Source of the DNA: Savitreella phatthalungensis
Taxonomy: Eukaryota
Assembly: GCA_051599415.1 (NCBI GenBank)
Contig: AP039694.1
Span: 558,001 to 622,000, forward strand
Direction of reading: 5' to 3'
DNA length: 64,000 bases
Shown here: piece after piece, positions 20,485-63,252 of the stretch
Position numbering within the stretch: the first letter of the stretch is position 1
Layout: each line of letters starts with the position of its first letter
The notes under the pieces: generated by a model
Seen by the model: only the letters and a program-made list of their open reading frames with translations
Databases searched by the model: none
Told to the model about the DNA's origin: nothing
Made by a program: the position numbers and the translations under genes

Positions 20485-23478
20485 ATGTCGAAGAGAGCCG
20501 AGGCTGACCCAAAGGGTTCTGCCACGCTCGACAGCTACGGCGAGCAGATCAGGACATCCTGCAAAACTTATGAGGGCTCTTTGAAGCGTTGGAAGGCCAG
20601 GCGGAAGATCTTTCTTGCCCTTTTGCAGACATGGGCCCCATATCCGCAGCTGAAGGAGAATCCGATTGACAAGATGCGCCTCGAGCTCATTGATGCCGAA
20701 ATCAAGCGCCAGACCGAGAGGCTGGAGAGATGTGCTGCAAATCTGGCTAAGTTTGAAGAGCTGCAAAGTCAGATGCTACAGATTGCGGCAGTTGCTGCAG
20801 CCGACGGGGTGGCATCTGCAGGTGGTGCGCACGAGGAAGCTATGGGGGACGAGGACGCTATCATGGAGATATGCGAGGAATTAGACGATGACGACAACAT
20901 TATCTCTGCTACAGTGACGCCTAGAGATCAGCGAAGCGTTGAAATGATTACCGGCTTGATGTCTAGGCCGTCAGTAGACCTCGAGTCGCGGAGCGGAGGC
21001 GAGTCGACTAAGGAATTGATATCCGGGCAGGCGACATCTTGTGAATCTCACAATTCGGCGCTGGCTGAAATACCAGACGTGGAAGTTGGGTCGACCGACA
21101 TTACCGGAACAACAAATCCTGGGCTATTCAAGGTCACAACGAACGCAGCCGGCGAGCAAGAGCTCGTCAGCGATTCTGGAGGTTTCCAAATCAGTGTCTT
21201 ACCGCCTGAAGAGATGAATGCAATCGCAGAATCAGTTGATTGGGATGCTCTAGAGTTCGAGCAATCCGATGGAGATCTGGACGAAATCGAGGACGAATAT
21301 GGAAGAACGAAATCCGCCATCCCCATTCCAGCTCTACTACAACGCCCTGCCGCCGACTTAGAAAAAATGAAGGACGAGCCACAGCGGCTGCACTCTGATA
21401 CTTCGAACCCCTCAGATCATGTCATTGCGGACACGGCACCAGCATCAAAGAAGAAACTAGTCTTTGCTGACAATCTCGTTCGTGGTCCCACACCATCTGG
21501 CACGCCAACGAAGTCCGTGCTCAAGAAGACCACTTCATATCCGCTTTCGCCCGATAGTGACAGTGTCACTCAGCCGTCAGTCGAGACTGTGTCGGAGCAC
21601 CAGACAACGGACTTGCCGAAGCAGTCGCGCTTCAAGATGGCTAGATCCAGTACGGACCTCAAAATTGCAGCCCGTCACGCGCAACCCAGTCAGGCCTACA
21701 AGGCTAAGCTCAACGACACCGCGCCAATGGCAGATCGGGTCGTGGAGAAGGACTCGGACGATGAGGGTGCGCAGGTGCGCGTTGCAACGCGGCCAGAGCC
21801 ACCGCAGCGCACGTCGTCGGCCAATTTGACACGGGAAGAGCGTGATCGTCTATATCCAAAGAAGACGAATCTTGCGAGTGTCGATCTCGACGAGGAGGCT
21901 GGGCTGGTGAAACGAGAATTCTCTGCGCCGACACTTTCTCCTGAGGCGCTTGAAGCTATTCGCAAAAAGCGCGAGGCTTTGGGCAAACGCCACAAGCGCC
22001 GTAAGTCTGCTGACCCGTCCCATCCGGTCAGATCGTCCAGTTTTGATGAGCATGGGCCCATATCACTGCATCACAATCGTTCGAAGTCATCGACAGATCT
22101 TGAGGCAGAGCACGGAGAGAAGCTGAAAGAGATTCGTGATGCACGGCTGCAGCGCGCGAAGGAGATCCTCAAGGCGCAGGATGACATCAAATGGGCGAAT
22201 CAGCCGCTCACTCCAGATTCGCCTGACGCGCTAGCAGATGTTCACGAGCTTGGCGCAGCGACAACACTCGACACGCAAAGCGGCTCTGCCGTTCCCGCTG
22301 TATTTGGAATTAAAGAAGATGAGCGGACGAGTTCAGTCGATACTCCAGGCACTTTCAAAAATCTCGACTCGTCTACCTCGAGTGTTATGGCCTCGCCTGC
22401 ACAGTCTGACCCAGGTGCAAAGATCTCCCCGCCATCAGGAGGTCGAACGCCGCCTGTGGCGCATGGCCCACCGATCGTCTCGCCCCGTGCCACGAAGCCG
22501 CCAACTCCTGAGCGGCGATCATCGATTGATCGTCCCTCTCCATTGTCGAATGAGATCAAGCCGAGCGTAGACAGGCAGGTCGCTTTCTCTCGTCAGGTTG
22601 TTGAACGGCTTGCGCCACTTCAGGAGGACGGCTCTGAGCCAACGGTTGTCGCCAACCTCAAGTCACCACGACGCATGCCTCCACGGGAGCCGAAACGGAA
22701 ACCATCAATCGATCCCCTGATTATCTCTCCAACGCCTGGGTCACCGCCACCGGAGAATCGTTCACGAGACCCGCTTGCAACAGAGCAAGAGGGCGCTGTG
22801 CACCACAACATGGTCAAAGCCACTCCACGCTCGCCGCCTCCGCATATAGCCATCCACGATCTGGTGTCTGAGGGCAGTCCGACATCACAGCGAGTGCGCT
22901 TGGAGATGAAAAGGGAGGCTGCCACAGCATTCCCACCTTTGAGCCAGGGGCAATCTGTCTCCAAGCCGGGAGAGACGTTCTCTTCGACGAGCGGCGCGAA
23001 GCAGAGTCACTCGATCGGTCACTCTGGTATGTAGTCCGTGCAGAAGCTGCCAATCAAAGCCTGAATATCAACTAATGTAACTGTAGGAAAAGCAAAAGTT
23101 TTGGAACAAAGACATCCAGATCACGGCAGTGACGCAACGAGACGGGGGCTTGTTTCAGATTGCTCTTCATCACCCTTGCCGTTGCTGAAAACTGAATCTG
23201 CTGAGCTCCTGGCTGCAAAAGGTGGTAACGCCGACGGCATTGATGGAAGCAACGATAGCGATGATGGCTATGACGAGGAGATGCACGCGCGAGAGGTCAG
23301 GGAGGCATATCATCGGTTGAGAAGCCGGATGATTCAGTCGCATGGTGGAGGCTTTGCAACGAGCGTAGACGATGATTGGGAGGTGTATGCGACCGACTCC
23401 GCTGACGGGATGCCCCGAGATGACGAAGAGCTTCAACGTATGTCGCGCTGGCGGTCTGCTCGGATGAAACCGTTGTAG
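20485..23478 (+). CDS. Bud27/URI-like protein with C-terminal DUF3835; intron 23027-23086
   Basis: IMEICEELDDDDNII motif. The intron GTATGT..ACTAAT..TAG joins the 20485 ORF in frame to the 23101 ORF, which ends EAYHRLRSRMIQSHGGGF..MSRWRSARM. Confidence 0.75.
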
Positions 23479-40493: not shown

Positions 40494-41735
40494 TCAACGG
40501 CGTTCGTCTTTGCTATCGTAGGAACTGTCTATAGCCCCTAGCATAAGTTTCATGAGGTACACCCCCGGTGAGAAGTTGTGTACTCCGATACGGGCCATCT
40601 CATCAGCCTCAAGCTCGTAGTTCGACGTACAGTCGACGAAGCCGCCGATTTCTACGTCGCGGTCGAGTTGTCCGAGAAATTCACGCGCCTTGATGTCGTT
40701 TCCAACCTGCACAAATTCAAACGAGATAGCGTCCGGACCATATCTAGTGCGTTGCAATTCTTCTTTTGCATGTCGGATGACCTTGAAGAGTTTGTCCTTT
40801 GATTCGCCTTGGGGTGCGCCGTCAGTGATGGTAATTGCTAGGACAGGCTTGCGCAGGTGTGAGGCCCGCGCTGGACCCAAGACATATGGTTCAAGTACCT
40901 TGCGTTCCAACGAAGTGCCGAGCGGCGTGATGCCTGTGAAACGTATTTGGGAAACCAGATTATGGACGTCCGCGGTGGATCGAATACCATTTCCCTGCAC
41001 GTCAGAATTAAGGAATCGGACACTGATGCCATCCAGATCGAAAAGGCCAACAACGAAGACAACTTTTTCGAGAATTGCCCTTAGGTCGTTGATTCTGTCG
41101 CCGCCCTCCTCGAATGACATGCTACCAGAGTCATCCACCAAAATGATAGTGTCAAAAAGAGCTAGCTTGACCAGGTCGTACGCCATTTCGACAGGTATCT
41201 GCCATTGGGCTGCCACATCTTCCAGCTTGCGGGCAAGATCCGGTAGATCGGCGATGGCTTGCACTGCTTGAGGCGTGTAGAAAGCACCAATGTTTTGATC
41301 ACGTACACATCCGTCCAGCAAAGCAAAGAGACCACTACTACTTCGCGAAGGATTTGGCGGTCTGCTGTCGTGATATTGCGCCTGCGGCACCGTCTGCGCG
41401 TACGCCGGTCGACTATGATCGGCTTGGGCCGCGTATACTAGCTGATTTGGAGGGGACCACTGTTGCTGGGGTATTTGTTGACCGCTTTGCTGCTGCTGTC
41501 CGTAGCTAACAGCGGGCTGATTGAAGTTTGATGTTGAGTACTGTGCAGAAGTCTTCCCGTAACCTCCGTACGCAGGCGCTCCACCGAAACTCTGAGGCTG
41601 AGACTGTTGTTGCAATGGCGTGGGCGCGTACGATGATGTCGGAAGTTGGCTTTGAGGCGGCCTGCTTGAGCCAGCCACGCCACTTAGCGCATTCGCACCT
41701 GCAGCAATGTTGTTGAGCTTTGATGCCAGACCCAT
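40494..41735 (-). CDS. von Willebrand factor A domain protein with Q/P/Y-rich N-terminus
   Basis: MIDAS motif DDSGS, TPLG, ITITDG, FVQVGND; starts MGLASKL. Confidence 0.85.
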   Translation of the reverse strand: MGLASKLNNIAAGANALSGVAGSSRPPQSQLPTSSYAPTPLQQQSQPQSFGGAPAYGGYGKTSAQYSTSNFNQPAVSYGQQQQSGQQIPQQQWSPPNQLVYAAQADHSRPAYAQTVPQAQYHDSRPPNPSRSSSGLFALLDGCVRDQNIGAFYTPQAVQAIADLPDLARKLEDVAAQWQIPVEMAYDLVKLALFDTIILVDDSGSMSFEEGGDRINDLRAILEKVVFVVGLFDLDGISVRFLNSDVQGNGIRSTADVHNLVSQIRFTGITPLGTSLERKVLEPYVLGPARASHLRKPVLAITITDGAPQGESKDKLFKVIRHAKEELQRTRYGPDAISFEFVQVGNDIKAREFLGQLDRDVEIGGFVDCTSNYELEADEMARIGVHNFSPGVYLMKLMLGAIDSSYDSKDERR

Positions 41736-42244
41736 GCTGCAACGTTGCTTGTAGCAAGGCACAATATCGTGAATTATCCCGACGACGCCCGTGGTAATCA
41801 CTGGCAAGAGGAAAAGCACGCTTTTGTATCAGAATACCTTGAGTAAGAACCGTACAGGTCTACCGAGAAGCATCACATCATGTGACGACATTTTGAACCT
41901 CATTTGCATAACGCTAATCATTGATTCGAATGGGCTTAGCCAATGTAGATCATGATACATCTCCTTGATCAGCCAAGCCAATCTTCGGTTTCGTAGATTA
42001 TCTTGGACTGGCCTGTCTCAACTGCATCAGATTCGCTAAAGATTAGGATGATGCTATTTTTAGCAGGTGCTTTACTTGTTCTGACTCGGATTAAATCGAT
42101 AATGGAGCAACAGCCAGCGGGTCAGATCAATTTGCAAATAATGCGATGTGGGTCGACCATTTTTGCCTCATTCGAAGCTGAGACTGCGGACTGCCAAGCA
42201 CCATGTACAGGGGTCGACCTGGACAGGAGCTTAGATGCAGGGCC

Positions 42245-45505: not shown

Positions 45506-46531
45506 CGTCTTTGTCACTCGCTAGACAGCACGACAGTATGCCATACTATAGCTCATGCTGTTCAACAATTTGCAATCCAGGCTGGCGCCAATCCTTTGAC
45601 GACGATGGTGACGGGAAGCTCAGATACTTTGCGAGCCGCGATTCATGTAGATGATCATCTGTAGCTTAAGTGAGCGCCGCGCTAGCGTCATGGTCGGCTG
45701 GATTTCTACCGGGCATGATTCATATTGTGTTTATGATATCCGTGTGTTTGCTAAATTCGATCCAGCCGTAATCGATCTATGGATTTCACCTAGCTAGATA
45801 CGAACGAGTACGCGTTACATGCTAAATGTGATGATGCACATGCTGCGATTGCCTCGAGCATCGAGCTATGCAAGAAGAAGGGGTGGCACGCCCACAAACC
45901 CATGTGAGCGATGTTGCACCCAACTGACTGGTAGTGAACAGTAACCTGCATGGCTCACCTCACGTCTTTTCCTCATGTCCTAAATCTCGAGCTAGAAAGG
46001 CGAGTCAGGGTCGATTTCATGCTATACTTGCCTCAATACCTGCATGATGCATGGCCGGATCAGTGATTGCTCGATTAACGCCTTTTTGAGACTGAGCTCT
46101 CCATGCTTGGCCCAGTCTCACAAAAAGCAGGACCGACTGCCAGACTGATATCTGAGATCATGTAAAATAAATCAATTTAAATATTGGAATCCCGCGTGAA
46201 GTGTGGACCAAATGAGAAATGTAAATTTACGTCATGTATGGACCCGTGGTTGGCGTCTCACAGACAAGTCAAAGCGAGTTGAAATAATCGCTGGTGATGG
46301 AATTCGATAAGGTCATTTGCGCGGACGATTTCTGAAATTATGCACCATCCTCATATATGCAAATTGAGTCCAACTAATGAAGGATACGGCAGGCGCTGTA
46401 TCAAGGACTTGACACTTTCAGCGTAAACAGCACATTCGCAGATCATAAGTAGAGAAAGTGAAAATCGACTTGTGTCCCTTGCTGAATAGCTTCTCGCACG
46501 ACGACAAGTCAGAGTCTATCAGGGAGTTCGC

Positions 46532-47849
46532 ATGGTGAAGGAAACGGAGTACTATGATCTCCTTGGTGTGACGACTGCAGCTAGCGATCTTGAGATCAAG
46601 AAGGCCTATCGTCGAGCTGCGATACTCAACCACCCGGACAAGAATCCAGACGATCAGGATGGCGCTGCACGACGCTTTCAAAGGATTGGCGAAGCTTACC
46701 AGGTTTTGAGCGATGCTCAGTTGCGCGCAGCATATGACAAGTACGGCAAGGAGAAAGCCAAGCCTGATCAAGGCTTCGAGGATCCAACAGTGTTTTTCAG
46801 CCAGCTTTTCGGCGGCGAGGCGTTTGAGGATTTCGTTGGGGAATTGTCGCTGCTGAAGGACATGGCTAGAGCGATGGAAATACAGGAAAAGACTGAACGA
46901 GAGGAAGCCGAGGACGCCGCGTCGGCAAGGAACAAGACAATGGATTCCGCAACCGCAGGCCAAGGCCAACCGACCTTCGCACGCTTGCGCTTGACGGAGG
47001 GCGAGGCCATGAGTGCTGACGGATTCACTACTCCCACTGCGCAAGACGTCGACAAGAAGGAACGTAAGCGGGCGATGAGCAAGGAACAACGGGAGGAATT
47101 GCAAAGTAAGTGCCCCATCCATATTGCGAGCGGGAAATTGCTGACCAAGCACAGGATATGAGGCGGAAAAACTACAGAAGCAACAAGAGCGCATCGCAAA
47201 ATTGACCAAGAAGTTGGAGGAGCGTTTGTCTGTCTGGGCCGAGTCCGAGAAGTCGCCAGAGACGACAGCGGCCTTTCGGCAGAAGTGCATCTTTGAGCGC
47301 GAGAACTTAAAGCTCGAGTCTTTTGGTGTAGAGATGCTGCACGTCATAGGACAAACATATATCACAAAGGCGACAATCTGTCTCAAGAGCACGAAGTTCA
47401 TGGGCGGTTTTCTGGGCAAGTTGAAGGAGAAGGGGGGAATAATCCGCGATACGTTTGACACAATATCTGTTGCTGTCGACGCATCAATGATGGCGCAAAA
47501 GATGCAAAAAATGGAGGAGAAAGGAGAAGAGCTGACGGAAGAGGACAGAGCATTGTTTGAACAGGAGATGACAGGTAAGGTCTTAGCAGCCACCTGGGGC
47601 GGTACGCGTTTTGAAATTGGCGGCGTTTTACGCGAGGTCTGCGATAATGTTCTGAACTCGAAAGCAGTATCGAAAGACCGCCGCCTTGCTCGAGCACAGG
47701 CCATGTTGATGATGGGTGAAGTGTTCATCCTCGCCAAGCCCGACTCAGAAGACGAGGGGCGTATCTTTGAAACTCTTGTTGCAAACGCGCAGAAAAAGAA
47801 GCACCACAACAAGAAAGAGAAGCAGAAGCCCAAGACTGCGGCGGACTGA
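46532..47849 (+). CDS. DnaJ-X domain protein (Caj1/Djp1-like); intron 47106-47154
   Basis: [32 protein letters not shown]. The intron GTAAGT..GCTGAC..CAG joins in frame to [15 protein letters not shown]. Confidence 0.92.
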
Positions 47850-48670
47850 GGCTCAGGAGTCAAGGAGCGAAGCTGCGGCGATGATTGCGCACTTCGGAAA
47901 ATTCAAAGCACAATCTTGCCTCTGCAAAAGCGTTCTGCAGCAATTCACATTGACTCACACTTCGACGCACAGAGAGTCATCAGGCTGGAGATCGGGTAGA
48001 ACGATTTGGCATTCGACAGGATCAGTTCCTGCAGTTTGAGCTAAAGGTTTCGCTCCTCCAAATAGTGCTTGACTGGACGGCATAATGCAAAAAAGACAAA
48101 TCGATGACCCCATCATCTGCTTTTGCATAAAGGGTTCACCTTGCGCTGTGAACACGCTATAGTTCCCCGAGCCCAATATGCGGCATCTACTGAGTTCGAT
48201 GCTCAATGGCGAGCGCTCAAGGATGACATATCGCGCAATGTTGTGTCTCTCGTGAGATAAAGCAGATTAGTGTAGGATCAAGAAACGATGACAGTTCAAT
48301 CTTCACAAGATTACGTGCACTAAATCATCATGAGTCGGAGCAGCCGAAACCCGGACGGACGATTGCCCAAACATACGTACGTACGTGCAATGCATACGTG
48401 CATAGTACGCACTCATCTGAGATTTTGCTGGTACTTGGCTACACAAGCAATTCACTGATTGATCTCCAGACTTTTCGCACACATCCTATGCATACGTATT
48501 CTACGTATGGGACGTGCTACCGAAAGAATTCAAATATACACACATTACTCGACGACGATTACGCGGCTCTAGCTAACTCACAAAAAGCACGATCACGCGT
48601 AGAGGCGTCTCTCCATCCGTCGTACATCGGAGGATCGGATTACAATAAGGACGTTGAATCAATTCCCCAT

Positions 48671-56503: not shown

Positions 56504-56827
56504 ATTGAAATGACGAATCGATCCCATCTGTCGAAGATCTTGTTTGGAGCTTCGATCGATCAGGTATACGACATGCTAGTCTGCAAATTATGGTTGCAAA
56601 TGATCCCTTGAAAGAGACGCGACACGATGAAAGCACCTTTGAAGGCGAAGAACGCAACGGCAAATTCCGACTGCACACACATGGCCTTGGATCCGAGTTT
56701 ATGACATGCGCAAATTGGTATATGCGCTCGCTACATATTGTATCTTCAAATTTTGTTGTGACAACCAACAACATGCACCTTGACTATATCAAAACAGTAT
56801 ACCGGCTGTCTTGACCGTCTCAGGGTT

Positions 56828-57784
56828 ATGTCAAGATCAGAGAGGCAGCAAGCACGGCTCCGCGGCCGAGGACAGATATTCTTGAGCCACAACTCACCGA
56901 CATTTACGCTACAGCGCAGCGAGCGCAGGCAGCAAGCTTCACTCGACGCGGTTGTTGCAGACTACCAGGACGCCAGGAGCCCGCTGCAAGACAGATGTCC
57001 AAACCACTGCGCGGCCAGCACGTCCGTTCACGCTGTCGACTTCGACCACAATTTTGCAACACCTAATGCTTGGACGAAGGGGTCGCGAGTTCGGAGGAAA
57101 AACCTTAACATCTCCAAGGAATGTTCAAAAGCCACGCAGACCGGGCATACTCCATTCCAACAGGCTGAGTCAGGTATGAATCATGCTCTAGATGATAGTT
57201 CTGTCTCGACCTTCAGCGAGTCTGTGCATGGCAACAATTTGGCACCGAATGAGGCTTGCGAACGGCCGCGATTGCTCGACAATGCTGACACTCTAACACC
57301 TGTCCGCTTCCCCGTTGTACAAGGGAAAGCTTGCGCGCGCGGCAATCGGAAATTGACACGTCTTGAACGAGAATTAGGGAGAGGTTATACCCGCTTCATT
57401 GTCGACGCCCCAAATTTCGCTACTCCAGCTCCAGTGAAACCAGAAAATGAGGGCACATGCCACGGCGGCAGATCTGAGTTGACCCCTGTGCGACATGGCA
57501 TCACCATAACGAGACGGACTCAGCCAGTGAATGCGCGAGTAAGGTACCACGAGTCTGGCCGTGCGGGCGCCAGGTTGAAGACGCTCCCGAGGTTAGGGGG
57601 CCGAACAAGTGATCGGCCAGTCTTGACAGATGAGCAGGCAGCTCAGGTGATCGCTCGGAGGAGGGCGGGAGCAAATTGGGCGGCTGCGGCTCGCGTCGTC
57701 GGAATGCCATGGCAGAGCGTCAGGGCGCAGCTCCAAAGAATAGATGAACAGTCACTGCTGTCACTCATCGCGAAGTACGTATGA
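56828..57784 (+). CDS. Hypothetical protein with a C-terminal HTH/Myb-like segment
   Basis: 318-codon ORF; C-terminus LTDEQAAQVIARRRAGANWAAAARVVGMPWQSVRAQL. Confidence 0.55.
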   Translation: MSRSERQQARLRGRGQIFLSHNSPTFTLQRSERRQQASLDAVVADYQDARSPLQDRCPNHCAASTSVHAVDFDHNFATPNAWTKGSRVRRKNLNISKECSKATQTGHTPFQQAESGMNHALDDSSVSTFSESVHGNNLAPNEACERPRLLDNADTLTPVRFPVVQGKACARGNRKLTRLERELGRGYTRFIVDAPNFATPAPVKPENEGTCHGGRSELTPVRHGITITRRTQPVNARVRYHESGRAGARLKTLPRLGGRTSDRPVLTDEQAAQVIARRRAGANWAAAARVVGMPWQSVRAQLQRIDEQSLLSLIAKYV

Positions 57785-60106: not shown

Positions 60107-61369
60107 CTACATATTGCCATCCGAGGCTCGTACATTAAAACTCGCAGTCTTACGCACGCCAGAAGATCCCTGCTGCGCTGGACCGGCCGACAGAGAATGA
60201 CGGTGCCGCCGCGCGCCGGCTGCAGACGTGTGCGAGTGAGAGTGGTGATCCGATCGATGCAGCGGTCGATCTTCGTTTTCCTCGTCGCTCTCGGTCAGAT
60301 CTGACAGGGCGAACTCCTCGTCATGGTGACCGTTTCCTCTCTCTGACATCTGGGAGCTGCGGCGCAAGGAGACCGACTGCCGGCGTGTGGCCAACGCAGA
60401 CACACCGTTTTCCATCGGTATGCCATCAAATCCGGCTTTGCCCAGACTAGCGTCCCCTGAGACGCGTGCAGTATTGAGCAAGTAGACTCCAGAGAAGATG
60501 ACGAGGAAACCAGCCAGTAAGGAGATCGTGTTTACAGCATCCGTGGTATTGAAGCCCCGAAAGAGAATGAAAGACGCGCACAAAGTCGCTGTCGTAAACG
60601 TCACGTAGTAGAGCGGATTTACCAATGACGTGTCGAATTGGTCCAGAGCTTTGTTGAAATAGTTCATCTGAGTCAAGATGCAGACGACCACTACCACGAG
60701 GAAGACATATGTTGACGGATGACTGAGCTGATTGTTGCCTGCAAAGGTGAGTTTCAGCGCGATTCCGAATCCTTTGATAGACATGACCGATACTGATCCG
60801 ACAGTTGAGCAGATAGATATGTATACCAAGGGGTTCGATTTGCCATATTGCGGTGCGACGCGATAGATCATCGTGACGGCGAAGACACCAACCGCAAAAC
60901 AATAGAACATGAAGCCAGGCTGCAGCGCAAAAGCAAGAATCTCGTCAACCGTCTCGACGTCTCGATCGGCTGGAGCGTGCAGCACAATGATGACGCTTCC
61001 GAGCAGACAAAGCGCGCAGCCGAGTTTTCCGAGTACCCCGAGCTCTTCCTTCAAGAAAATGGCGGCGAGAACAGCGCCAATCAGGACAGACAATGCTCCT
61101 AACGGCGTCACCAGGATTGCTGGGGCGAAAGTATATGCGGCGAAATTTGCGATCTCGCCGACCGCCATAGTGATCATGCCTGCCCACCAGATGGGATTCT
61201 GAAGGTAACCAAATTGTTGCTCGTTGTCATAACCCCTGCGTTGCGCGTCCATGAGGCCCTTCTTTGTGATGATGAAAGAAGTGCCGATGGCAAGTGACGA
61301 CGAGATGGCGAGACCCAGGCCAATATATTTGCTGTCCAGCCCGGATGGGCCGGTCGGCAGCTCGGCCAT
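60107..61369 (-). CDS. NIPA-family magnesium transporter
   Basis: IGTSFIITKKG, GEIANFAAYTFAPAILVTPLGALSV, QMNYFNKAL, VNPLYYVTFTT. Confidence 0.95.
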   Translation of the reverse strand: MAELPTGPSGLDSKYIGLGLAISSSLAIGTSFIITKKGLMDAQRRGYDNEQQFGYLQNPIWWAGMITMAVGEIANFAAYTFAPAILVTPLGALSVLIGAVLAAIFLKEELGVLGKLGCALCLLGSVIIVLHAPADRDVETVDEILAFALQPGFMFYCFAVGVFAVTMIYRVAPQYGKSNPLVYISICSTVGSVSVMSIKGFGIALKLTFAGNNQLSHPSTYVFLVVVVVCILTQMNYFNKALDQFDTSLVNPLYYVTFTTATLCASFILFRGFNTTDAVNTISLLAGFLVIFSGVYLLNTARVSGDASLGKAGFDGIPMENGVSALATRRQSVSLRRSSQMSERGNGHHDEEFALSDLTESDEENEDRPLHRSDHHSHSHTSAAGARRHRHSLSAGPAQQGSSGVRKTASFNVRASDGNM

Positions 61370-61759
61370 GATTCGTTCTGCTGGATGAAAGTTTGTGTCA
61401 CTGTGTCCTCTTATCCCACTTTCGTACTGATACGCTGAACGTAAGAAAGTCTGGGGGCGATTGTGGGCGCAGTCTTGCGGTTGTCAATGAGTATTCGAAG
61501 CTTACAGCAGCGTGTTGTGCATCTGCAAGCGTCTTTTACCCGGCGCAGGAAATTTGGCGGCAATATTGCAGAACGATGAACTCGTGTCGATTGACAGAAA
61601 TAAAGAGGCAATTGTCTAGCACATGGCGCTCATTGACACTAGCTTTTGCTTACTATGACAACTGCACATATGCACGCGAAGTATTGATGCATGCACAGAG
61701 CATTAACGATCACGCTCCGTCCTGGTCCAGATGCGTCCTTAAACGAGGTTCCGAGCCGG

Positions 61760-62101
61760 TCAGAGCAACGCAGCGCCCGTCGCAATCGCTGCTCCAGAAC
61801 CTCTAAATGCGATCGGATTGTCTACTACCATCCTGACAGGGAAGCGCCATTCCATGAACCGTCCATAAGCGTAAAAAGCTGCCTGCCGACCGAAGTATTT
61901 CCCGGCAAGCGGCAAGAGAATCAAGTTGAGAGCAAGTGAAAGCTCGTGCATTTGCTGTTCCCACTGCTCATCAGCATCACTGCTGCTGGAGCTATACGCA
62001 GTCGGGTCAGCAGCAGATGGGACACCAGCAGATGAAAGGATATCCGAATCGTCGATTTCATCCTGGTGGGATACGACTTTCTCGTTGTGGAACGCAAACA
62101 T
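61760..62101 (-). CDS. MIM2: Mitochondrial import protein Mim2-like module, possibly also expressed from the internal ATG at 62101
   Basis: Acidic SSDADEQWEQQMHELSLALNLILLPLAGKYFGRQAAFYAYGRFMEW matches the recalled Mim2 pattern DA..EW...L.....P..GK.FGR. Confidence 0.7.
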   Translation of the reverse strand: MFAFHNEKVVSHQDEIDDSDILSSAGVPSAADPTAYSSSSSDADEQWEQQMHELSLALNLILLPLAGKYFGRQAAFYAYGRFMEWRFPVRMVVDNPIAFRGSGAAIATGAALL

Positions 62102-62990
62102 CTCCGAGAGCGTCACCGATGCTTCCTGGTCGAAGAGATGATCGATGCCCGGAAGTTCAAGATACTGGTAGTCGGCGCCCGAGGCGGCAAGAGCCTCGGC
62201 TAGCTCGCGACTTTGCTCGACACCAACGGCTTGATCAGCGTCTCCATGTACGAGGAAGACCGGGCAGATGCTTTTGCCTTTGCGCAACTCGGTCGGTACG
62301 CTATACAGTGATTGACTTCCGCGATCGACGCCAAGAAGATTGGCAAGATTTGCCTTATCGAGCATGTAGTAATACATTTTTGAACGCGGATGTTCACGCC
62401 CACTCGACGTCATAATGGCGCTACCGGGGTCGATGAAAGCCTTCAGACTTTCGGCGTCGTAGGAGTCTTTCCCCAACGGCTGTGGTGTGGTGAAAAAGTC
62501 TCCTAGCGGATCCGTAATAGGATAAATGGCTAAACAGGATCGTAGCTTAGAATCTCGCATTGCCGCGAGCAGCGCAAGGTATCCGCCTGCGCTCGAGCCG
62601 GACACGGAAAGCTGTCTCAGGTCCAGGATATCTCGACCTACGAGAGAATCTCCGTGACGTCGGATATGCTCTATCGCATCAAGGCAATCTTCAAGGATAT
62701 CAGGCAATTTGACCTGCGGAGCCAGCCGGTAGTCCACGGAGCAGAGAGCGAACTGTCCTCTGCGAACGCCAGACAGGAGATGTGGCGCAACCCCCTTGCG
62801 AGTGCCCTGAAGCAGGCCACCGCCATCTACACCCGTGTCAGTACGTTTTCACGAGGCGAACATGCTTCAGACAGAACGTACGATACCAGACGATTACCGG
62901 CAATGGTTGATTCGCATGGCTGTCGGGAAGGTGAATGTCATAGCTGATTTTTACCCCGTCCACGATCTTGAAGACCACCTCCAGAAGCAT
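61760..62990 (-). CDS. HSL-family alpha/beta hydrolase continuing in frame into a Mim2-like C-terminal region; intron 62881-62827
   Basis: Exon 1 from ATG 62990. The intron GTACGT..ACTGAC..TAG restores WYHGGG; further motifs DYRLAP, GSSAGG, HGDAD, DHLFD. No stop before 61760. Confidence 0.85.
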
Positions 62991-63252
62991 CCTACTGCTT
63001 GCCCGCCTGCCTGCCTCTTCGAGGAAGAGGATTGACGTTGATTTCAGCTTGCTTTGATGCTACCAGATTCGTCCTGTGCCGCGAAACGGGATCGTATAAG
63101 ATTGATCAAAGATCGTCCACCGACGAGCTAACAAGTCCGAGTTAAATGGGGTAGGACACTGGGGAAATTTGTACTCGCAAACGTTGTCTCGGAGAACGCA
63201 AACGATTGGCCTGTGGGCGAAGACAAGTGGCGAGCTCTATACTGGCAGTCCG

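What the first reader, a model, noticed from the sequence alone, without database searches (positions are those of the whole stretch)
61760..62990. Esterase fused in frame to a Mim2-like mitochondrial insertase subunit
Seen: a complete HSL-type hydrolase (HGGG, GSSAG, HGDAD, His) runs without a stop into an acidic linker and a Mim2-like TM/GKYFGR module. Known: Mim2 is normally a small standalone outer-membrane protein with a cytosolic N-terminus. Inference: either a real fusion that tethers an esterase/lipase to the MIM complex, or nested genes in which Mim2 starts at ATG 62101 (113 aa) inside the last hydrolase helix. I do not recall such a fusion being described.
Basis: partly seen in the sequence, partly recalled or inferred. 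Interest (0 to 1): 0.8.

Follow-up and report, generated by a model that had tools for sequence, protein, structure and literature searches.

The report
Esterase fused to mitochondrial Mim2 subunit
A fungal gene joins a complete serine esterase to the small Mim2 subunit of the mitochondrial outer-membrane insertase; the same fusion recurs in a lineage that includes Taphrina and Protomyces, so it is real and inherited, but what the enzyme does there is unknown.

Summary
On the minus strand a two-exon gene (62990..61760, one 55-nt intron, 391 codons) encodes a BD-FAE/Abhydrolase_3 serine hydrolase with an intact HGGG, GSSAG Ser, Asp and His. It continues without a stop through a 31-residue acidic, Ser-rich linker into a full-length Pfam Mim2 module (64 bits, cut-off 27).

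This is not an assembly error or a chance open frame. Ten other proteins have the same architecture, including annotated proteins of Taphrina deformans and Protomyces lactucae-debilis. Their linkers run from 2 to 80 residues. In a hydrolase-only tree the 11 fused proteins sit on one side of a branch with 100% support, and the Mim2-module tree agrees. That fits one old fusion, inherited vertically.

Elsewhere Mim2 stands alone: 145 of the 150 best representatives, and 1314 short proteins in a profile search.

Because yeast Mim2 has its N-terminus in the cytosol, the enzyme should sit on the mitochondrial surface. That placement and any enzymatic role are inferred.

I could not test whether a Mim2-only isoform also starts at ATG 62101, because no RNA data or whole genome was available. 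None of six searches of the open-access paper library found the fusion described.

The parts
62882..62990 (-). Exon 1. ATG at 62990; 36 codons plus the first base of the His codon of HGGG. Encodes the N-terminal strands of the hydrolase.
   Evidence: Aligns 1-36 to 1-36 of relative P0005, E 2e-9.
62827..62881 (-). Intron, 55 nt: GTACGT donor, CTGAC branch-like site at position 41, TAG acceptor.
   Evidence: Read from the sequence and checked by script. Left unspliced, the exon-1 frame stops at codon 51. Spliced, it restores the HGGG motif shared by relatives.
61760..62826 (-). Exon 2: the rest of the hydrolase, the linker, the Mim2 module, the C-terminal tail and the stop (TGA 61762-61760).
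62072..62826 (-). Serine hydrolase domain within exon 2 (P0001 residues 1-251). Ser78 codon 62593-62591, Asp197 codon 62236-62234, His229 codon 62140-62138.
   Evidence: Pfam Abhydrolase_3 2.4e-18 and BD-FAE 2.8e-18. Triad columns are invariant. AlphaFold2 block-mean pLDDT is 87-98 over residues 11-250. Foldseek matches alpha/beta hydrolases 3h04 and 2qru and HSL-like esterases.
62099..62101 (-).
   Evidence: Met occupies this column in 11/11 fused and 72/111 stand-alone hydrolases.
61982..62071 (-). Acidic, Ser/Thr-rich linker, predicted disordered. It corresponds to the natural N-terminal tail of stand-alone Mim2.
   Evidence: Net charge -6 and 11 Ser/Thr in 31 residues. Block-mean pLDDT falls to 47-68 here, below 50 for residues 265-279. 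Relatives have linkers of 2-80 residues. Stand-alone Mim2 proteins carry similar tails.
61847..61981 (-). Mim2 module (P0001 residues 282-326), including the DADEQW box and the LPLAGKYFGR motif.
   Evidence: PF19117 64.2 bits against cut-off 27, profile 1-45/45. Modelled as helix 283-327.
61889..61942 (-). Predicted single membrane-spanning segment (P0001 residues about 295-312). The N-terminal flank carries charge -5 and the C-terminal flank +3.
   Evidence: Highest Kyte-Doolittle 19-residue window of the protein, mean 1.16.
61763..61846 (-). C-terminal tail after the Mim2 profile (residues 327-354), conserved among the fused relatives. Expected to face the intermembrane space.
   Evidence: Alignment. 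Helix 337-353 at lower confidence. Topology inferred from yeast Mim2.
61992..62074 (-). Candidate cryptic intron in the linker, 83 nt: GTATCC donor, CTGAC, TAG. If spliced, it would end the hydrolase 4 codons after the junction and leave Mim2 untranslated. Judged unlikely.
   Evidence: The donor lacks the G at position +5 that I recall as consensus. The frame across this stretch stays open in all relatives.

Best explanation
This is one gene encoding one 391-residue protein: an apparently active HSL-like (BD-FAE/Abhydrolase_3) serine esterase joined at its C-terminus to the N-terminus of a complete Mim2. Mim2 is the small single-span subunit of the fungal MIM insertase, which inserts alpha-helical proteins into the mitochondrial outer membrane. 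The linker is simply Mim2's own disordered acidic, Ser-rich N-terminal tail. The fusion arose once, in an ancestor of a lineage that includes Taphrina and Protomyces, and has been inherited vertically since.

Inferred mechanism: the Mim2 helix inserts into the outer membrane with its N-terminus in the cytosol, as in yeast, and joins Mim1. The esterase is thereby held on a flexible tether at the cytosolic face of the insertase, where it could act on an ester substrate such as a lipid or acyl ester, or serve as a docking domain.

Shown here: the gene model, both domain identities, the intact triad, the conserved architecture and the congruent domain trees. Inferred only: mitochondrial location, topology, association with Mim1, and any enzymatic role.
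For: Both domains score above Pfam cut-offs, and Mim2 covers its full profile.

The spliced model is clean: 391 residues and one terminal stop. Exon 1 is supported by homology.

Of the 120 best listed hits to the exon-2 protein, 8 besides the window's own ORF call carry hydrolase families plus PF19117. Two are named: Taphrina deformans PYCC 5710 (412 aa) and Protomyces lactucae-debilis (458 aa). The other 111 have hydrolase families only. Two more fused forms, P0125 and P0141, came from the exhaustive search.

Linkers range from 2 to 80 residues in the 10 fused proteins measured, and only 2 of those 10 linkers contain a Met. 87 of 111 stand-alone hydrolases stop exactly 8 residues after the Met242 column, where the fused proteins read on.

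In a hydrolase-only tree (Mim2 part removed; 11 fused plus 55 stand-alone rows) the fused proteins lie on one side of a branch with SH-aLRT 100, needing one change of state. In the Mim2-module tree the same 11 group together with support 93.

The Ser/Asp/His triad is kept in 10 of 11 fused proteins.

The AlphaFold2 model has mean pLDDT 87.7: a confident alpha/beta-hydrolase domain, a low-confidence linker, then a long helix 283-327.

The best hydrophobic segment has an acidic N-flank and a basic C-flank.

Yeast Mim1 and Mim2 each have one membrane span, with the N-terminus cytosolic and the C-terminus in the intermembrane space (PMC6010339, passages). A large folded N-terminal domain therefore need not cross the membrane.
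Against: I have no transcript or protein evidence for this organism or any relative.

The window's whole genome is not held, so a second, stand-alone Mim2 copy is not excluded. I can only say that the 64-kb window holds no other copy.

Two short Mim2-only ORFs, P0123 (118 aa) and P0124 (126 aa), nest inside the fused group in the module tree. Mim2 may therefore exist without the hydrolase in this lineage, or those ORFs may be broken or intron-split gene calls. I could not fetch their DNA.

One fused relative, P0125, has lost the HGGG motif and all three triad residues. Catalysis is thus not universally required.

Met242 is present in 11/11 fused proteins against 72/111 stand-alone hydrolases. 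That is compatible with an internal start, although the fused rows are one clade and so not independent.

Seven of the 10 other fused proteins come from unannotated contigs and carry no source name, and P0141 has no source information at all; judging from the window's own entry P0003, which starts at an internal Met, I take them to be plain ORF calls.

Finding fused forms by searching with a fused query is an ascertainment bias.
Confidence: 0.8

Rival explanations
1. Nested or alternative product. Besides the fusion protein, or functionally in place of it, a transcript starting inside the hydrolase coding region is translated from ATG 62101. It would give a 113-residue stand-alone Mim2, which would be the form that works in the MIM complex.
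For: A 113-residue product is within the usual size of stand-alone Mim2 (104-145 aa among the 120 best profile hits). Its N-terminal tail resembles theirs. Met is present at this column in 11/11 fused proteins against 72/111 stand-alone hydrolases. Short Mim2-only ORFs P0123 and P0124 exist within the fused group.
Against: The Met also occurs in 65% of hydrolases that have no Mim2, so the hydrolase fold alone explains it. No stop ends the hydrolase frame in any of the 11 fused proteins, so the fusion protein is made whenever the full mRNA is translated. In P0010 only about 2 residues separate the hydrolase end from the Mim2 box. The triad is kept in 10/11 fused proteins, which argues that the fused enzyme is itself under selection.
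Confidence: 0.12
2. Cryptic splicing. An 83-nt intron in the linker (62074-61992) is removed, so the hydrolase ends 4 codons after the junction as a stand-alone-like enzyme. The Mim2 part would then be untranslated, or translated from another mRNA.
For: GT...CTGAC...TAG signals are present with a typical branch-to-acceptor distance. The shortened product of 291 residues would resemble the stand-alone hydrolases in length.
Against: The donor is GTATCC; the G at position +5, which I recall as part of the fungal consensus, is missing. The only GTRNGT-type donor in exon 2 lies elsewhere, at 62641. The frame through this stretch is kept open in every relative despite very different linker lengths, which is not expected for intron sequence.
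Confidence: 0.04
3. Artefact. A sequencing or assembly error has removed a stop or shifted the frame between two adjacent but separate genes.
For: None beyond the rarity of Mim2 fusions: 5 of the 150 best representatives are long forms.
Against: Ten other proteins from independent assemblies share the architecture. The two domain trees are congruent. The window contains no N. No Mim2 lies beside stand-alone hydrolase genes in the 80 metagenome loci examined.
Confidence: 0.01
4. Precursor that is cut. The fusion is translated and inserted, and the exposed disordered linker is then cleaved. This would release a soluble cytosolic esterase and leave an ordinary small Mim2 in the membrane.
For: The linker is predicted disordered and protease-accessible. 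Its length and sequence are unconstrained among relatives.
Against: There is no conserved cleavage motif in the linkers. P0010 has almost no linker. No tool here can test processing.
Confidence: 0.03

Closest known systems
Mim2 of Saccharomyces cerevisiae and the stand-alone fungal Mim2 family (Pfam PF19117)
   Same: Full-length match to the family profile. It shares the acidic DA(D/E)xxW box, one moderately hydrophobic helix with the P-x-x-G-K-Y/F-x-G-R motif, and a disordered Ser/Asp-rich N-terminal tail.
   Different: Stand-alone members measure 104-145 aa among the 120 best profile hits, and 62-215 aa for 145 of the 150 best representatives. This protein has 391 residues, with a folded enzyme in front of the tail.
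Annotated but uninterpreted fused proteins: Taphrina deformans PYCC 5710 'protein of unknown function' (P0009) and Protomyces lactucae-debilis 'Alpha/Beta hydrolase protein' (P0011)
   Same: Same order of parts: hydrolase, linker, Mim2 module, conserved tail. They fall in the same group in both domain trees.
   Different: Only 41% and 36% identical to the window protein. Their linkers are longer, at 64 and 54 residues. The window protein's nearest relative is the unnamed P0004 at 54-55% identity.
Stand-alone fungal BD-FAE/Abhydrolase_3 esterases, called 'acetyl esterase/lipase' by JGI (for example P0015 and P0027)
   Same: 40-49% identity over the hydrolase domain, with the same HGGG, GSSAG, Asp and His.
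   Different: They end about 8 residues after the Met242 column (87 of 111). They have no membrane segment. In the 80 loci examined they had no Mim2 gene beside them.
Solved alpha/beta hydrolases 3h04 and 2qru (function unknown) and HSL-like family IV esterases (for example EstDL136 6aae, Est2 1evq)
   Same: Same fold: Foldseek E 2.4e-11 and 3.2e-11, target TM-scores 0.73 and 0.70. There is weak sequence similarity: 53 PDB sequences at E<=1e-3, the best being 4ypv at 3.3e-9.
   Different: About 20% identity. All appear to be soluble enzymes, and none has a C-terminal membrane module. No substrate can be inferred from them.

Membership tests
Mim2 (Pfam PF19117) | Profile match above the curated gathering score, over the whole profile | tested here: met
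   64.2 bits against a cut-off of 27, profile 1-45/45.
Mim2 (Pfam PF19117) | Single membrane-spanning helix carrying the conserved P-x-x-G-K-x-x-G-R motif | tested here: met
   The motif columns P64, G67, K68, G71 and R72 are invariant in the alignment with 9 stand-alone members. It is the top hydrophobic window and lies in model helix 283-327.
Mim2 (Pfam PF19117) | Small stand-alone protein of about 80-145 residues | tested here: not met
   391 residues with an N-terminal enzyme domain. Size is typical of the family rather than defining; the membrane module itself is complete.
Mim2 (Pfam PF19117) | Located in the mitochondrial outer membrane, N-terminus cytosolic, C-terminus in the intermembrane space | not testable with these tools
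   Known for yeast Mim2 (PMC6010339, passages); only inferred here.
Mim2 (Pfam PF19117) | Forms the MIM complex with Mim1 and supports insertion of helical outer-membrane proteins | not tested
   No Mim1 sequence from this organism was available because the genome is not held. No complex prediction was run.
HSL-like esterases (Abhydrolase_3 PF07859 / BD-FAE PF20434) | Profile match above the gathering score | tested here: met
   67.1 bits against 25, and 66.7 bits against 26.8.
HSL-like esterases (Abhydrolase_3 PF07859 / BD-FAE PF20434) | HGGG oxyanion-hole motif | tested here: met
   Present across the exon junction. The Gly columns are conserved in the alignment.
HSL-like esterases (Abhydrolase_3 PF07859 / BD-FAE PF20434) | G-x-S-x-G nucleophile plus catalytic Asp and His | tested here: met
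   Ser78, Asp197 and His229 lie in columns invariant across 111 stand-alone hydrolases and kept in 10 of 11 fused proteins.
HSL-like esterases (Abhydrolase_3 PF07859 / BD-FAE PF20434) | Alpha/beta-hydrolase fold | tested here: met
   AlphaFold2 block-mean pLDDT is 87-98 over residues 11-250. Foldseek hits to PDB alpha/beta hydrolases have probability 1.00.
HSL-like esterases (Abhydrolase_3 PF07859 / BD-FAE PF20434) | Measured esterase or lipase activity and a known substrate | not testable with these tools
   The closest solved structures, 3h04 and 2qru, have no assigned function.

The most novel reading that the evidence does not exclude
In a whole lineage of early-diverging ascomycetes (Taphrina, Protomyces, this organism and unnamed relatives), this fusion is the only Mim2. 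Their outer-membrane insertase would then permanently carry an active cytosolic serine esterase. The fusion would be a Rosetta-stone link showing that this esterase family acts at the site where helical proteins enter the mitochondrial outer membrane, for example by remodelling lipids or removing acyl or ester groups. The stand-alone orthologues in other fungi would work with the MIM complex too.
Probability: 0.15. Interest if true: 0.75.

Novelty: new variant of a known kind. Interest (0 to 1): 0.5.

Why it matters
How the MIM complex works is still unclear. A 2025 paper states that its structure and stoichiometry remain unknown (PMC12401536, passages). Mim2 is described only as a small partner that modulates the Mim1 channel (PMC8272145, passages).

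A natural fusion of Mim2 to an enzyme, kept across deep divergence, gives a concrete and testable lead. It predicts that a large folded domain is tolerated on Mim2's cytosolic end. It also names a candidate functional partner, a BD-FAE-type esterase, for outer-membrane protein insertion.

If the link is only a convenient membrane anchor, the finding is a modest curiosity of domain architecture.

Tried and rejected
- **RNA evidence:** no RNA holder was listed for 61500-63200, so no reads were laid and expression and splicing are untested.
- **Own genome:** not held, so I could not search for a second Mim2 or for Mim1.
- **The listing of cluster members:** switched off, so the unnamed relatives (P0004-P0008, P0010, P0123-P0125, P0141) have no organism names.
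- **Word-indexed search for longer Mim2-containing proteins:** found only the window's own ORF and P0004, clearly missing the known fused forms. The exhaustive representative search replaced it.
- **Metagenome scan with the hydrolase alignment:** 435 relatives confirmed and 80 loci kept. None carries a Mim2 module in any frame. This gave no extra fused loci and no sign of hydrolase-Mim2 adjacency. Only a few of the fungal-like loci (L002, L006, L008) have a full 4 kb downstream.
- **Profile search for short Mim2:** the best 120 are all stand-alone, and none is named Taphrina or Protomyces. Small genes are often left unannotated and only 120 of 1314 hits were listed, so this does not show that those genera lack a stand-alone copy.
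- **Placing the organism:** an ESM Atlas look-up of a long window ORF gave only 'Ascomycota'.
- **Earlier scan notes:** nothing found by place, sequence or words.
- **Cryptic 83-nt linker intron:** considered and set aside (see rivals).
- **Other Mim2 fusion partners:** 15 intermediate-length representatives (164-215 aa) showed only Mim2 in Pfam. Some, such as P0131, P0134 and P0155, look like read-through of an intron inside the module.
- **Complex prediction:** not used, because no Mim1 partner sequence from this organism was available.
- **Supplementary files:** none of any paper was consulted.
Full report
**1. What is in the sequence**

- An ATG at 62990 opens exon 1 (62990-62882, 109 nt).
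- A 55-nt intron follows (62881-62827), with a GTACGT donor, a CTGAC branch-like site and a TAG acceptor.
- Exon 2 (62826-61760) runs to a TGA stop at 61762-61760.
- The spliced coding sequence is 1176 nt, giving 391 residues and a single terminal stop. Left unspliced, the exon-1 frame stops at codon 51.
- The His codon of HGGG is split by the intron.
- Exon 1 aligns position for position with the first 36 residues of an intron-less relative, P0005 (13/36 identical, 23/36 similar, E 2e-9). This supports both the start codon and the splice.

The gene sits between a NIPA-type magnesium transporter gene (60107-61369, minus strand) and an orotidine-5'-phosphate decarboxylase gene (from about 63250, plus strand). 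The rest of the window is ordinary fungal housekeeping DNA.

**2. The two domains**

I worked with P0001, the exon-2 protein of 354 residues, which begins at the GGG of HGGG.

- Pfam gives Abhydrolase_3 (E 2.4e-18, 67.1 bits) and BD-FAE (E 2.8e-18, 66.7 bits) over residues 1-231.
- Pfam gives Mim2 PF19117 (E 8.3e-18, 64.2 bits against a cut-off of 27) over residues 282-326, covering profile positions 1-45 of 45. The last 113 residues alone give E 1.3e-18.
- GSSAG, HGDAD and DHLFD are present. Ser78, Asp197 and His229 lie in columns invariant in 111 stand-alone relatives.
- An AlphaFold2 model built on a 46-sequence alignment has mean pLDDT 87.7. Its parts are a confident alpha/beta-hydrolase domain (block-mean pLDDT 87-98 over residues 11-250), a low-confidence stretch at 252-282, a long helix 283-327, and a final helix 337-353.
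- Foldseek places the enzyme among alpha/beta hydrolases. The best matches are the uncharacterised 3h04 and 2qru (target TM-scores 0.73 and 0.70), followed by hormone-sensitive-lipase-like esterases.
- A sequence search of the PDB agrees weakly: 53 sequences at E<=1e-3, best 3.3e-9.
- The most hydrophobic 19-residue window of the protein (mean 1.16) is the Mim2 helix at 294-312. Its N-flank carries charge -5 and its C-flank +3. The linker has charge -6 and 11 Ser/Thr in 31 residues.

**3. Is the fusion real?**

Searching 5.8 billion proteins with P0001 gave 751 hits at E<=1e-3 among the 8000 candidates scored, of which the best 120 were listed.

- Besides the window's own ORF call, the 8 top hits (P0004-P0011) carry hydrolase families and PF19117 together.
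- Two of these are annotated NCBI proteins: Taphrina deformans PYCC 5710 (412 aa, 41% identity) and Protomyces lactucae-debilis (458 aa, 36%).
- The other 111 listed hits have hydrolase families only.

An exhaustive phmmer search of 1.84 billion representatives with the last 113 residues gave 283 hits at E<=1e-3, with the best 150 listed.

- Five of the 150 are long (266-458 aa) with the match at their C-terminal end: the window's own ORF, P0006, P0011, and two new ones, P0125 and P0141.
- The other 145 are 62-215 aa.
- Pfam confirmed hydrolase plus Mim2 in P0125 and P0141. It found only Mim2 in 15 intermediate-length representatives. The esterase is therefore the only fusion partner seen among those I examined.

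That makes 11 fused proteins, counting the window's.

- The linker was measured in 10 of the 11, because the acidic-box pattern did not match P0141. It ranges from 2 to 80 residues, is Ser/Thr/Asp-rich and poorly conserved, and contains a Met in only 2 of the 10.
- 87 of 111 stand-alone hydrolases end exactly 8 residues after the column of Met242, which is where the fused proteins continue.
- Stand-alone Mim2 proteins carry a similar Ser/Asp-rich N-terminal tail before the DA(D/E)xxW box. The 'linker' is therefore Mim2's own tail.

**4. One origin**

I built a tree from the hydrolase parts only. The fused rows were cut 25 residues before the Mim2 motif. It held 11 fused and 55 stand-alone rows; 56 of the 111 stand-alone hits were left out to save time. 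All 11 fused proteins fall on one side of a branch with SH-aLRT 100, needing a single change of state.

A tree of the Mim2 modules (62 rows, only 71 columns, so weakly resolved) also groups the 11 fused modules, with support 93. Congruent histories of the two halves are what vertical inheritance of a single old fusion predicts. They rule out an assembly artefact.

The only named members are Taphrinales. The window's organism is not identified beyond Ascomycota, and its nearest relative is the unnamed P0004.

**5. Results that complicate the picture**

- In the module tree, two short Mim2-only ORFs nest inside the fused group. P0123 (118 aa) is sister to P0125 at 76% identity. P0124 (126 aa) lies near the Taphrina protein at 68% identity. 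They may be true secondary splits or losses of the enzyme, or gene calls broken by an intron or frameshift. Their DNA could not be fetched.
- P0125 has lost the HGGG motif and all three catalytic residues while keeping the fold-level Pfam matches and a good Mim2 module. In that sublineage the enzyme half looks like a pseudoenzyme. Together with P0123, this suggests that the Mim2 half is the indispensable one.
- Met242 (ATG 62101) is present in 11/11 fused proteins but in only 72/111 stand-alone hydrolases. This is compatible with an internal start. It is weak evidence, because the fused proteins are one clade and the residue is already the majority state without any Mim2.
- No RNA run was listed and the genome is not held. 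I could therefore test neither an internal transcription start nor a second Mim2 gene. The 64-kb window holds only this one copy.

**6. How it most likely works**

Attaching a folded enzyme to the N-terminus is therefore topologically easy. Only the short C-terminal part must cross the membrane, and the esterase would remain on the cytosolic face on a flexible tether of 2-80 residues.

I infer that the protein is a working Mim2 subunit that brings an esterase to the insertase. Retention of the triad in 10 of 11 fused proteins argues that the enzyme is usually active. The pseudoenzyme P0125 shows that a non-catalytic or dispensable role is possible.

The substrate is unknown, since the nearest solved structures have no assigned function. 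The stand-alone orthologues showed no Mim2 gene beside them in the 80 metagenome loci examined. The fusion is thus not a simple read-through of a widespread gene pair, as far as that small sample shows.

**7. Comparison with what is known, and novelty**

Mim2 is described as a small stand-alone subunit of a fungal insertase whose structure and stoichiometry are still unknown (PMC12401536, passages; PMC8272145, passages). The original description by Dimmer et al. 2012 is cited in those passages; I did not read it.

In a profile search, 1314 short proteins matched at E<=1e-3. The 120 listed were 104-145 aa with Mim2 as their only Pfam family. The named ones came from genera such as Capronia, Aspergillus, Penicillium, Talaromyces and Exophiala, and from lichen fungi. 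That these are all Pezizomycotina is my recollection, not a tool result.

Searches of the open-access paper library gave no description of the fusion:
- Mim2 + Mim1 + 'fusion protein' + hydrolase, at least three of the four terms
- Mim2 + Taphrina
- Mim2 + mitochondrial + esterase
- Mim2 + Mim1 + 'gene fusion'
- 'MIM complex' + Mim2 + AlphaFold
- PF19117

The hits were mainly unrelated 'MIM' motifs of the ESCRT system or general MIM papers, judged from titles and abstracts. Subscription journals are not covered, and no supplements were read.

The fused proteins of Taphrina and Protomyces are already public, but are named only 'protein of unknown function' and 'Alpha/Beta hydrolase protein'.

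I class the finding as a new variant of a known kind. It is a real, conserved domain-architecture variant of Mim2, so far apparently unremarked.

**8. Verdict**

- The fusion reading is supported, with confidence about 0.8 that a fused protein is the product.
- Location, Mim1 binding and enzymatic role are inferred.
- Interest is moderate, at 0.5. It offers a concrete lead for a poorly understood insertase, but it may turn out to be no more than an enzyme borrowing a membrane anchor.

Noticed in passing
Relative P0125 (416 aa; unnamed source; not in the window): A fused hydrolase-Mim2 relative has lost the HGGG motif and the catalytic Ser, Asp and His, yet keeps a good Mim2 module. It looks like a pseudoenzyme version of the fusion.
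   Followed up: partly
Relatives P0123 (118 aa) and P0124 (126 aa); unnamed sources: These are short Mim2-only ORFs whose modules nest inside the fused group; P0123 is sister to the pseudoenzyme fusion P0125. They may be secondary splits, losses of the enzyme, or broken gene calls. Their DNA could not be fetched.
   Followed up: partly
Stand-alone Mim2 representatives such as P0131, P0134, P0155, P0162 and P0205: In many ORF-called stand-alone Mim2 proteins the Pfam match stops at profile position 37-39, and some (P0131, P0134, P0155) carry an unrelated insert there. This suggests a conserved intron inside the Mim2 module in those fungi. The window's gene has no interruption at that point.
   Followed up: no
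window 61992-62074 (-): An 83-nt stretch in the linker carries GTATCC...CTGAC...TAG signals. If spliced, it would end the hydrolase 4 codons later. The donor is non-consensus, so this is probably not an intron.
   Followed up: partly
window 62991-63250: A short region of about 260 bp separates the fusion gene from the divergently oriented orotidine-5'-phosphate decarboxylase gene. Only about 390 bp separates its stop from the start of the NIPA transporter gene. Any separate Mim2 promoter would therefore have to lie inside the hydrolase coding region.
   Followed up: no
window 20485-23034 (+), 40494-41819 (-), 46418-47863 (-), 56780-57784 (+): Four long open reading frames (849, 441, 481 and 334 aa) have no Pfam family at E<=1e-5, among otherwise well-annotatable housekeeping genes.
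   Followed up: no
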